A stretch of 64,000 nt of DNA from Escherichia coli (GCF_003019035.1 NZ_CP027447.1), one strand, 5' to 3'. Positions 60,514-61,249 are shown, counted from the first letter of the stretch. A program made the numbers and translations. The notes: a model not told the origin generated them from the letters alone.

Positions 60514-61249
60514 AGCAACCTCCAGTAAAATGAATAATGATCCGTACCGTACAACTGCGGATAATGTGATAAGCGGGACGACTTCAGACGTTATTAGGGA
60601 AGGAACAGAAAATGCTATGGTTATGTGAGAATTTTGTTTAAATATTACTTTACAGAAACGGGTGTCTGTTCAGTCAAAAAAATAATCACAAGCTCAACCT
60701 CTTGTTTCTTGGCGTTATTCAGGACAGGTACGCATATCACAACGAGTAACAAAAACGCAAAGTTAAACCAATATTCATAATATATTTTTATTCACAGCAA
60801 TAAATAATCCAATTAACATTATTAAAATGAATGATTGCATAAGAAATATATGCTACCGCTCCACCCTGATAACATGATCTGCACATTGCACATCTTAACG
60901 TTGTTAAATACTGGCTCAATAGTGGATATTTTAAATTAGGAATTTATCAAATTCACTTGATAAATAGATTGAGTGAATAATATAACAATTAATGATGATT
61001 AATCGCGATTAAATTATTCATTGCTTTATATGATAGATGGCTTGTTTATAACGATGAAAATTTAGAAAGGGCATTGTGATCTACAATTGGAAGAAACACA
61101 GATTTAACTAAGTTTCATATACAAACATCTCGTGAAACTTTGAAAAATAAAAGCCTTCGATATTTCATATGTTTAATAAGTTTTTCTCTAATTTGTTGAT
61201 CAACAATACCAGGAGGTGATGCACCACGCCCTGAATTTGAACTTAATAA

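What the first reader, a model, noticed from the sequence alone, without database searches (positions are those of the whole stretch)
60514..61249. 736-bp AT-rich ORF-free leader upstream of vgrG, with a perfect 14-bp palindrome
No ORF of 60 aa or more occurs on either strand, and composition is far more AT-rich than the flanking cusS and vgrG genes. This is typical of H-NS-silenced horizontally acquired control regions. It contains a perfect palindrome TTAATCGCGATTAA (60999-61012) and a nearby inverted repeat ttcact-N14-agtgaa (about 60953-60978), candidate regulator-binding sites. The region must carry the promoter for the vgrG-rhs operon.
Basis: seen in the sequence. Interest (0 to 1): 0.4.

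Follow-up and report, generated by a model that had tools for sequence, protein, structure and literature searches.

The report
vgrG-rhs leader with RfaH ops site

Summary
Window 60514-61249 has 31.5% GC, no ORF longer than 51 aa, and the perfect palindrome TTAATCGCGATTAA at 60999-61012. The gap lies between the cusS stop and the vgrG start, both on the minus strand. The whole gap belongs to a ~10.4-kb vgrG-eagR-rhs island that K-12 lacks. This is the published EHEC vgrG1/rhsF island (S-loop 44).

The gap has two parts. The 255 bp nearest cusS are locus-specific and hold both 14-bp palindromes. The ~480 bp nearest vgrG form a leader module shared at ~80% identity with the vgrG2/rhsE island.

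The palindrome is weak evidence for function. Shuffles give one this long 11% of the time. It is absent from one homologous leader type, one base off in O157, and absent from the paralogues.

The real conservation peak is a 54-nt core at 60848-60901. It contains an RfaH ops site, AGCGGTAGCATA, at 60849-60860 on the sense strand, with every essential base intact. The homologous core in CFT073 is RfaH-bound by ChIP-seq.

The most likely mechanism is a weak, H-NS-silenced promoter (start near 60920) followed by RfaH loading at about +61 to +72, which carries RNA polymerase through the ~8-kb operon. This is a new member of a known kind, of moderate interest.

The parts
60995..61249 (-). Distal, locus-specific AT-rich segment between the cusS stop and the conserved leader module. 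It contains both 14-bp palindromes.
   Evidence: It matches only the cusS-adjacent locus in 2804 E. coli genomes, a median of one place per genome, with no paralogues. It is about 77% identical in the S1-IND type and mostly deleted in O157. It is absent from K-12.
60999..61012 (.). Perfect palindrome TTAATCGCGATTAA, at -79 to -92 from the inferred start site.
   Evidence: chance 0.106. It is not conserved in homologous leaders.
61193..61206 (.). Second perfect palindrome TTGTTGATCAACAA, which contains a GATC and lies 44-57 nt after the cusS stop.
   Evidence: It is degenerate in the S1-IND type and deleted in O157. No intrinsic terminator was found after cusS.
60514..60994 (-). Conserved vgrG leader module, shared with the vgrG2/rhsE island leader.
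   Evidence: About 78-80% identical to the yncH-rhsE locus copy, and present in 4049 of 5426 E. coli genomes at a median of 2 places per genome. Indel lengths (1, 2, 4, 10, 11 nt) rule out conserved coding.
60952..60977 (.). Inverted repeat ttcact-N14-agtgaa. The arm at 60952-60957 overlaps the inferred -35 hexamer.
   Evidence: Only the promoter-proximal arm (AGTGAAT in the sense orientation) is conserved across leader types. The distal arm differs in the rhsE, GF130 and CFT073 types.
60920..60956 (-). Inferred sigma-70 promoter: -35 GTGAAT at 60951-60956, -10 TAAAAT at 60928-60933, start at A 60920.
   Evidence: In EDL933, Cappable-seq gives one sense-strand TSS, 675571, within the homologous 593-bp leader (PMC10469882 supplement). 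The sequence from the -35 hexamer to +20 is identical in the window; the first difference is one base upstream of the -35. This is an inference by homology, not a measurement in this strain.
60848..60901 (-). 54-nt ultra-conserved core of vgrG/rhs island leaders.
   Evidence: This is the conservation peak: 0.90-0.93 invariant columns and a 29-nt invariant run at 60861-60889. A profile built from six other leaders, with the window excluded, hits only here in the 64-kb window, E = 4.6e-14. The core is shared with the CFT073 c1882, GF130/E. whittamii and Superficieibacter loci.
60849..60860 (-). RfaH ops site AGCGGTAGCATA (consensus GGCGGTAGCGTG), at about +61 to +72 of the leader transcript.
   Evidence: Positions C3-G8 and T11, the ones shown to be essential (PMC5995543), are intact. 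The A10/A12 variant is the RfaH-bound kps ops. The homologous c1882 site, GGCGGTAGCGTA, is RfaH-bound in CFT073 (PMC9765446 supplement).
60514..60563 (-). Remnant of the proximal promoter, plus the Shine-Dalgarno GGAGG before the vgrG ATG.
   Evidence: The vgrG2-type leader has TTGTAC-17-TATTAT with a Cappable-seq TSS 14 nt before the ATG (EDL933 2052061). The window and O157 leaders carry a 10-bp deletion that destroys the spacing. No proximal sense TSS is listed for EDL933 vgrG1.
52864..60513 (-). Downstream operon: vgrG (58612-60513), DcrB/DUF1795 EagR chaperone (58123-58584), prePAAR-PAAR-Rhs-Ntox30 toxin (53250-58103) and a candidate immunity ORF (52864-53253).
   Evidence: Pfam hits, ORFs and RefSeq annotation of an identical locus.

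Best explanation
The 736-bp gap is the upstream boundary and 5' leader of the cusS-adjacent orphan T6SS effector island (vgrG1-eagR-rhs type).

Proposed mechanism:
1. An AT-rich, H-NS-silenced, weak sigma-70 promoter starts transcription near 60920 on the minus strand.
2. About 61-72 nt into the untranslated leader, RNA polymerase meets an ops site (AGCGGTAGCATA, 60849-60860) on the non-template strand, inside a 54-nt conserved core.
3. The paused complex recruits RfaH.
4. RfaH then excludes NusG and Rho and counter-silences H-NS. Polymerase can cross the remaining ~335-nt leader and the ~8-kb vgrG-eagR-rhs-immunity operon.

The palindrome and the other AT-rich inverted repeats lie outside the conserved machinery and are most likely incidental.

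Shown here: composition, absence of ORFs, island junctions, the two-part structure of the gap, the conservation peak, and the ops match with its strand.
Taken from the literature: the start site in EDL933, RfaH occupancy at the homologous CFT073 core, H-NS binding at the paralogues, and which ops bases matter.
Inferred: that RfaH acts on this allele, and that the start site is used in this strain.
For: - Island and leader structure.
- Conservation peaks at 60848-60907. An independent profile hits only there, E = 4.6e-14.
- The ops 12-mer is on the sense (non-template) strand. Across eight leader types, variation within it is confined to positions 1, 10 and 12. Positions 10 and 12 also vary among functional ops sites: hly GGCGGTAGCATG, kps GGCGGTAGCATA, c1882 GGCGGTAGCGTA, all RfaH-bound (PMC9765446 supplement file 3).
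- Essential bases per PMC5995543: G4C, G5A, A7T and G8C abolish recruitment, C3G and T6A reduce it about 3-fold, and T11G is strongly defective in vivo. All of these bases are intact here.
- The CFT073 c1882 leader carries the homologous core. RfaH ChIP signal and a sigma-70 peak appear there in the hns stpA double mutant.
- RfaH and ops are required for EAEC Sci1 T6SS (bioRxiv 10.1101/2025.02.08.637259).
- The sense TSS in the EDL933 vgrG1 leader lies 50-60 nt upstream of the core.
- The operon is long and horizontally acquired.
Against: - There are no RfaH data for this leader type. CFT073 lacks the cusS island.
- This allele departs from the ops consensus at three positions (G1A, G10A, G12A). 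All single substitutions except G2C reduced RfaH stimulation in a reporter, and G1A itself was not tested.
- As a bare 12-mer with 3 mismatches the match is not distinctive: 82 such sites occur in the window against about 62 expected. The case rests on homology and conservation.
- The start site is transferred from another strain, where it is classed as a weak 'orphan' TSS.
- The core profile does not detect the rfb or waaQ JUMPStart elements. The 42 nt of the core upstream of the ops site therefore remain unexplained and could serve another factor.
Confidence: 0.6

Rival explanations
1. One reading: the perfect palindrome TTAATCGCGATTAA and the nearby ttcact/agtgaa repeat are operator sites for a dedicated regulator of an H-NS-silenced vgrG promoter.
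For: The palindrome is perfect and unique in the window. It sits at -79 to -92, and the inverted repeat at -32 to -57, from the inferred start, which are plausible activator or repressor positions. Two perfect 14-mers in 736 bp is more than the ~0.1 expected.
Against: One such palindrome arises by chance in 10.6% of shuffles. It is absent from the S1-IND-type leader at the same locus, one base off in O157, and absent from all paralogous leaders. It lies in the non-conserved distal segment. Its presence in about 2370 genomes only reflects at least 99% overall identity. Only one arm of the inverted repeat is conserved.
Confidence: 0.1
2. The ops-like site in this allele is a decaying relic. The island is transcriptionally dead, or is expressed only by read-through from cusRS or from spurious AT-rich promoters, and RfaH plays no part.
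For: There are three departures from the ops consensus. The proximal promoter has been lost through a 10-bp deletion. EHEC studies find the rhsF full-length start site inactive, and found no VgrG1 or RhsF protein even after a promoter swap (PMC7618764; PMC13141884). Several antisense and orphan TSSs occur in the EDL933 leader, typical of spurious initiation. No terminator was found after cusS.
Against: The core is the best-conserved stretch of the leader across lineages that differ by 20-50% elsewhere. All substitutions avoid the essential positions. The A10/A12 form works at kps. Silence in laboratory media is also seen at the CFT073 c1882 locus, which does bind RfaH once H-NS and StpA are removed.
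Confidence: 0.2
3. The conserved core acts as RNA rather than (or as well as) a DNA signal. It would be a cis-regulatory leader element or a short RirA-like sRNA released from the 5' end of the leader.
For: The core is transcribed at about +20 to +73 from the inferred start. In K-12 the ops-containing waaQ 5' UTR is annotated as the sRNA RirA. The 42 nt of the core upstream of ops are conserved without an explanation.
Against: No Rfam hit at E up to 1. The 407-nt leader folds no better than shuffles, z = -0.36. The RNAalifold consensus is weak, -4.8 kcal/mol, with 0 compensatory pairs. The Superficieibacter copy has an 8-nt insertion inside the core. No terminator-like hairpin follows.
Confidence: 0.1

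Closest known systems
RfaH ops site in the CFT073 c1882-c1889 (PAAR-vgrG) island leader (Hustmyer et al. 2022, PMC9765446)
   Same: It carries the homologous conserved core (GTGCAGAT...ATCAGGGTRGRGCGGTAGC). The ops site is on the non-template strand about 310-335 nt upstream of the first gene. The leader is AT-rich, H-NS-bound and silent in rich medium, and belongs to an orphan T6SS spike/effector island.
   Different: It sits at a different chromosomal locus (ansP/yncG versus cusS) and has different downstream genes (PAAR-vgrG-DUF4123 versus vgrG-EagR-Rhs). Its ops is GGCGGTAGCGTA, against AGCGGTAGCATA here. RfaH binding was measured there and not here.
Classical ops/JUMPStart leaders of the rfb, waaQ (RirA), kps and hly operons
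   Same: The 12-nt ops has an intact C3-G8 core and T11, preceded by a G-run (CAGGG / TGGGG). It lies in an untranslated leader of a long, horizontally acquired, H-NS-bound operon. The kps variant GGCGGTAGCATA differs from the window's site only at position 1.
   Different: The upstream half of the 39-bp JUMPStart (GGTAGCTGT...) is not recognisably present. A profile of the vgrG-leader core does not detect the rfb or waaQ elements. The distance from ops to the first gene (~335 nt) is longer than at wzx, kps or rfa (40-71 nt) and shorter than at hly (634 nt).
EHEC vgrG1 (z0707)-eagR (z0706)-rhsF (z0705) island, Sakai S-loop 44
   Same: Same insertion site next to cusS, same gene order, and a leader 94% identical over the shared part. 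The ops variant and the 10-bp proximal deletion are identical.
   Different: The EHEC leader lacks about 140 bp of the distal segment and the second palindrome, and its first palindrome is one base off. The Rhs C-terminal toxin and the downstream cassettes differ.
vgrG2-rhsE island leader (EDL933 z2262; remnant upstream of K-12 rhsE)
   Same: The paralogous leader module is about 78-80% identical over 480 bp, including the core.
   Different: It keeps the near-consensus ops GGCGGTAGCGTA. It also keeps an intact proximal promoter, with a mapped TSS 14 nt before the ATG, which lies downstream of ops and therefore bypasses RfaH loading.

Membership tests
RfaH ops element | 12-nt match to GGCGGTAGCGTG that retains the bases required for RfaH recruitment (C3, G4, G5, T6, A7, G8) and for pausing (T11) | tested here: met
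   AGCGGTAGCATA at 60849-60860, minus strand. This is 9 of 12 overall and 7 of 7 essential positions (criteria from PMC5995543).
RfaH ops element | Located on the non-template strand of a transcribed, untranslated 5' leader, downstream of a promoter | tested here: met
   The site is in the sense orientation relative to vgrG, in an ORF-free leader. Transcription across it is inferred from the EDL933 sense TSS 675571, equivalent to window 60920. It was not measured in this strain.
RfaH ops element | Precedes a long, horizontally acquired, H-NS-bound operon | tested here: met
   The vgrG-eagR-rhs-immunity operon spans about 8 kb, and the island is absent from K-12. H-NS occupancy is known only for homologous leaders.
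RfaH ops element | Consensus elemental pause (Y at -1, G at +1, upstream G) that causes RNAP to pause at U11 | tested here: inconclusive
   T11 is present, but position 12 is A rather than G, as in the RfaH-bound kps and c1882 sites, and G1 is A. G12C removes the U11 pause but not recruitment in vitro.
RfaH ops element | RfaH occupancy or RfaH-dependent expression | not testable with these tools
   The homologous CFT073 core is positive by ChIP-seq. CFT073 lacks this island.
39-bp JUMPStart element | Conserved upstream half (CAGTGC...GGTAGCTGT...) at fixed spacing from ops | tested here: not met
   Only the G-run and the ops site align with K-12 rfb and waaQ. The core profile gives no hit on those leaders at E up to 1. 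A GCAGTGC motif at similar spacing is seen only in the CFT073 copy.
H-NS-silenced xenogeneic control region | AT-rich relative to its flanks, and absent from related genomes | tested here: met
   31.5% GC against about 55% in the flanks. The K-12 nfrB-cusS spacer is 149 bp and contains none of this sequence.
H-NS-silenced xenogeneic control region | H-NS occupancy and de-repression in hns mutants | not testable with these tools
   This is published for the K-12 yncH>rhsE spacer, CFT073 c1880-c1886 and EHEC T6SS genes, but not for this leader.
Rhs element / orphan vgrG island | VgrG, DUF1795/EagR chaperone, PAAR-Rhs core with a variable C-terminal toxin, an immunity ORF, an orphan Rhs fragment and an ISAs1 (H-repeat) transposase | tested here: met
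   Pfam hits: Phage_GPD/Gp5, DcrB, prePAAR/PAAR/RHS_repeat/Ntox30, RHS, DDE_Tnp_1. The RefSeq annotation agrees.
Transcription-factor operator palindrome | Conservation of the palindrome in homologous leaders | tested here: not met
   Absent from the S1-IND type and from the paralogues, and one mismatch in O157.
Structured cis-regulatory RNA or sRNA | Stable or covarying secondary structure, or a match to a curated family | tested here: not met
   Rfam gives nothing. The leader's folding z-score is -0.36. No covarying pairs were found.

The most novel reading that the evidence does not exclude
The cusS-adjacent vgrG-rhs island, present in about 2700 of 5426 complete E. coli genomes including O157:H7 and E. 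coli B, may be a cryptic member of the RfaH regulon through a degenerate ops site (A1, A10, A12) that consensus searches miss.

This leader type has lost the proximal, ops-bypassing promoter that the vgrG2 paralogue keeps. Its expression would therefore depend strictly on RfaH. That would couple Rhs toxin delivery to the LPS, capsule and hemolysin programme. It could also explain why swapping the vgrG1 promoter in EHEC yielded no VgrG1 or RhsF protein.

The 42 conserved nucleotides upstream of ops would be a T6SS-island-specific companion signal for an unknown factor.
Probability: 0.4. Interest if true: 0.5.

Novelty: new member of a known kind. Interest (0 to 1): 0.38.

Why it matters
Orphan vgrG-rhs islands carry the antibacterial toxins of many E. 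coli, yet they are silent in the laboratory and their control is unknown. EHEC workers report an unexplained block even after promoter replacement (PMC13141884).

An RfaH loading site in this leader gives a concrete, testable cause. Transcripts that start downstream of ops, or in cells without active RfaH, would fail to traverse the operon.

It would also add a very common E. coli locus to the short list of RfaH targets (eight in CFT073). And it shows that ops variants three mismatches from consensus can be picked out by homology and conservation rather than by motif search.

The palindrome that prompted the finding does not matter.

Tried and rejected
- Rfam scan of 58000-64000 at E up to 1: no hit.
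- RNA structure: the 407-nt leader folds no better than shuffles, and RNAalifold on 8 leader cores finds no covariation.
- Mini-ORF over the core (MCRSCYQGGAVAY...): rejected. Frame-shifting indels separate the paralogues, and E. whittamii has lost both ATG codons.
- Read by eye and dropped: a sigma-54 promoter (the GG/GC spacing is wrong), a CRP or Fur box, a Dam switch (the GATC is lost in the GF130 type), and a tRNA 5'-end relic.
- Dispersed repeat (ERIC-like): rejected, since there are at most 3 places per genome.
- The promoter-scan hit TTATCA-16-TATATT (60845-60872): it overlaps the ops core, and its -10 is not conserved in the GF130 type, so it is not favoured.
- Shimada's predicted TTGACT-17-TATTAC promoter for K-12 rhsE: its spacing is destroyed by an 11-bp deletion in this leader.
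- PhoB site of the K-12 rhsE leader: not conserved here.
- Intrinsic terminator after cusS: none found.
- Partner copy of the core, or of the palindrome, elsewhere in the window: none.
- Scan of one genome for each of 100,044 species with TATCAGGGTGGNGCGGTAGC: only 3 hits, two Escherichia and Superficieibacter electus. The Superficieibacter copy is not next to recognisable T6SS genes, so its context stays unexplained.
- In vitro ROSE TSS supplement: no entry for rhsE or yncH.
- No paper in the searchable library links RfaH, ops and Rhs.

Full report
**1. Observation**

The window is E. coli. On the minus strand the gene order is:
- cusR, 62688-63371
- cusS, 61250-62710
- the 736-bp gap, 60514-61249
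- vgrG, 58612-60513
- a DcrB/DUF1795 (EagR) gene, 58123-58584
- a prePAAR-PAAR-Rhs-Ntox30 toxin, 53250-58103
- a candidate immunity ORF, an orphan Rhs fragment and an ISAs1 transposase, followed by nfrB

.

The gap is 31.5% GC, against 50-66% in its flanks. Its longest ORF is 51 aa. The palindrome TTAATCGCGATTAA is at 60999-61012, and the ttcact-N14-agtgaa repeat is at 60952-60977.

A perfect palindrome of at least 14 bp appears in 10.6% of dinucleotide shuffles of the gap.

**2. What the gap is**

K-12 has only 149 bp between nfrB and cusS. Relative to K-12, window ~50819-61271 is an insertion. Its right junction falls inside the last codons of cusS, so the CusS C-terminus changes from ...TLPA* to ...MLPERE*. 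The whole gap therefore belongs to the island.

Across 5426 complete E. coli genomes:
- 2370 carry the full gap, 2295 of them at 99% identity or better.
- An O157-type allele is 94% identical and lacks most of the distal part.
- A rarer S1-IND type is about 77% identical.

The gap has two parts:
- The cusS-proximal ~255 bp (60995-61249) match only this locus.
- The vgrG-proximal ~480 bp are a leader module. A paralogous copy, 78-80% identical, sits upstream of the vgrG2/rhsE island next to yncH. A remnant of that copy is fused to the truncated rhsE of K-12.

Published work names the locus. It is the EHEC vgrG1 (z0707)-eagR (z0706)-rhsF (z0705) island, Sakai S-loop 44 (PMC7216683; PMC7618764).

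**3. The palindrome and the inverted repeat**

Both 14-bp palindromes lie in the distal, non-conserved part. TTAATCGCGATTAA is replaced by unrelated sequence in the S1-IND-type leader at the same locus. It is one base off in O157, and it is absent from every paralogous leader. Homology with the paralogues starts immediately downstream of it.

Of the inverted repeat, only the promoter-proximal arm is conserved.

**4. Transcription starts**

EDL933 Cappable-seq (PMC10469882 supplement) lists four TSSs in the homologous 593-bp vgrG1 leader. One is on the sense strand, 675571. Three are on the opposite strand: 675202, 675305 and 675709.

By identical sequence context, the sense start maps to window 60920. 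It has a -10 TAAAAT (60928-60933) and a poor -35 GTGAAT (60951-60956), which overlaps one arm of the inverted repeat. This gives a 407-nt 5' UTR.

The vgrG2 paralogue behaves differently. It has a start 14 nt before its ATG, from a good TTGTAC-17-TATTAT promoter. In the window and in O157 a 10-bp deletion destroys that spacing, and no proximal sense start is listed for vgrG1.

Initiation inside the interval is therefore documented in a close relative, but it is weak. The Tree laboratory likewise reports the full-length rhsF start as inactive.

H-NS binding is published for the K-12 yncH>rhsE spacer, together with in vitro RpoD holoenzyme binding (PMC3946193). It is also published for the CFT073 relatives.

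**5. The conserved core is an RfaH ops site**

Conservation across the four full-length leader types peaks at 60848-60907, with 0.90-0.93 invariant columns and a 29-nt invariant run.

The same core is all that survives in more distant leaders:
- The GF130, E. whittamii and E. sp. E1V33 islands next to ansP, which have the order effector-immunity-vgrG-rhs.
- The CFT073 c1882 PAAR-vgrG island.
- One Superficieibacter electus locus.

.

A profile built without the window or O157 sequences finds the window only at 60848-60901, E = 4.6e-14.

The core is not coding. The ATG codons are lost in E. whittamii, and indels shift the frame. It also shows no RNA structure signal.

The core ends in GGCGGTAGCGTA in most types. 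This is the RfaH ops consensus GGCGGTAGCGTG with one change. In the window and O157 alleles it reads AGCGGTAGCATA (60849-60860, sense strand).

Mutational and structural work (PMC5995543) shows that C3-G8 are needed for RfaH recruitment and T11 for pausing. All of these are intact here. Across the eight leader types only positions 1, 10 and 12 vary.

GGCGGTAGCATA is the RfaH-bound kps ops site in CFT073. GGCGGTAGCGTA is the RfaH-bound site of c1882, 313 nt upstream of that gene. At c1882, RfaH and sigma-70 ChIP signals appear once H-NS and StpA are removed (PMC9765446). The c1882 site lies in the homologous core.

RfaH and two ops sites are also required for the EAEC Sci1 T6SS (bioRxiv 10.1101/2025.02.08.637259).

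CFT073 lacks the cusS island. This leader type has therefore never been tested, and no paper in the searchable library links RfaH and ops with Rhs.

**6. Mechanism proposed**

A weak, H-NS-silenced promoter fires at about 60920. RNA polymerase pauses at the ops site, at about +61 to +72. RfaH loads there. The modified complex resists Rho and H-NS across the remaining ~335-nt leader and the ~8-kb operon.

Because the proximal promoter is lost in this allele, all vgrG transcription must pass the ops site.

Shown: sequence, strand, conservation and homology. From the literature: the start site, RfaH binding at the homologue, and H-NS binding. Inferred: RfaH action on this allele. Confidence is about 0.6.

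**7. Caveats and rivals**

- As a bare 12-mer with three mismatches, the site is not statistically distinctive (82 found against about 62 expected).
- G1A has not been tested.
- The 42 conserved nucleotides upstream of ops do not match the rfb or waaQ JUMPStart and remain unexplained.
- The site could be a relic in a silent island. The core could also act as RNA, since the waaQ ops leader yields the sRNA RirA.

**8. Verdict**

The reported features are real, but the palindrome is incidental. The region is the known kind of AT-rich, H-NS-type leader of a described orphan T6SS island. Its one strongly constrained element is an ops site, which makes it a probable and previously unlisted RfaH target. 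It is a new member of a known kind, of moderate interest.

Noticed in passing
window 61193-61206: A second perfect 14-bp palindrome, TTGTTGATCAACAA, with a central GATC, lies 44-57 nt after the cusS stop. It is degenerate in the S1-IND type and deleted in O157. No intrinsic terminator was found after cusS.
   Followed up: partly
window 61250-61271 (cusS 3' end): The island junction lies inside cusS. The last residues are ...[10 protein letters not shown] here, against ...RFVITLPA* in K-12. Carriers of the island therefore have a slightly different CusS C-terminus.
   Followed up: partly
window 60545-60563, compared with L014 (EDL933 vgrG2 leader, 2052061-2052100): A 10-bp deletion relative to the vgrG2/rhsE-type leader removes the spacing of a TTGTAC-17-TATTAT promoter whose TSS is mapped 14 nt before the vgrG2 ATG. 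In addition, the window's -10 reads CATTAT, where O157 has TATTAT.
   Followed up: yes
L011 3855-3916 (Superficieibacter electus NZ_PQGD01000002.1): The same conserved core with a near-consensus ops site (GGCGGTAGCGTA) and an 8-nt internal insertion. It sits between a hydrolase/methyltransferase-phosphatase gene pair and a run of AT-rich small ORFs with no Pfam hits, and no T6SS genes are recognisable nearby.
   Followed up: partly
L002 ~6001-6003 / L008 3891 (K-12 rhsE): In K-12 the leader module, including its ops site at L008 3603-3612, is fused directly to the middle of the rhsE core. A deletion has removed the last ~56 nt of the leader, vgrG and the 5' part of rhs. K-12 thus keeps an orphan ops leader in front of a pseudogene.
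   Followed up: partly
L007 1-4000 (strain 1916D6, yncH-rhsE locus): A gene annotated as a 1571-aa 'RHS element core protein' starts with the VgrG N-terminus (MSTGLRFTLE) directly after the leader. This suggests an in-frame vgrG-rhs deletion fusion.
   Followed up: no
L015 (EDL933 675202, 675305, 675709, plus strand); window equivalents about 60549, 60652 and 61059: Three Cappable-seq TSSs antisense to the leader are listed for EDL933. One starts just upstream of the vgrG ribosome-binding site and reads away from vgrG. This looks like the spurious initiation typical of AT-rich DNA.
   Followed up: partly
L006 4001-4038 and L010 (strains OkiPb01679 and 600055): In some genomes an IS1 element sits inside the leader and the island (and in places nfrB or nfrA) is deleted. 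What remains is cusS plus a truncated leader that ends within the conserved core, before the ops site.
   Followed up: no
window 52118-52834 and 50874-52010: An orphan Rhs C-terminal fragment and an ISAs1 (H-repeat) transposase form the nfrB-side end of the island. This is the classic Rhs element layout.
   Followed up: partly
L008 ~3862 (K-12 coordinate 1527862): A weak PhoB ChIP peak with the motif TATCAGAAAAATGTCATG is published in the K-12 rhsE leader (PMC10294691). The motif is not conserved in the window's leader.
   Followed up: yes
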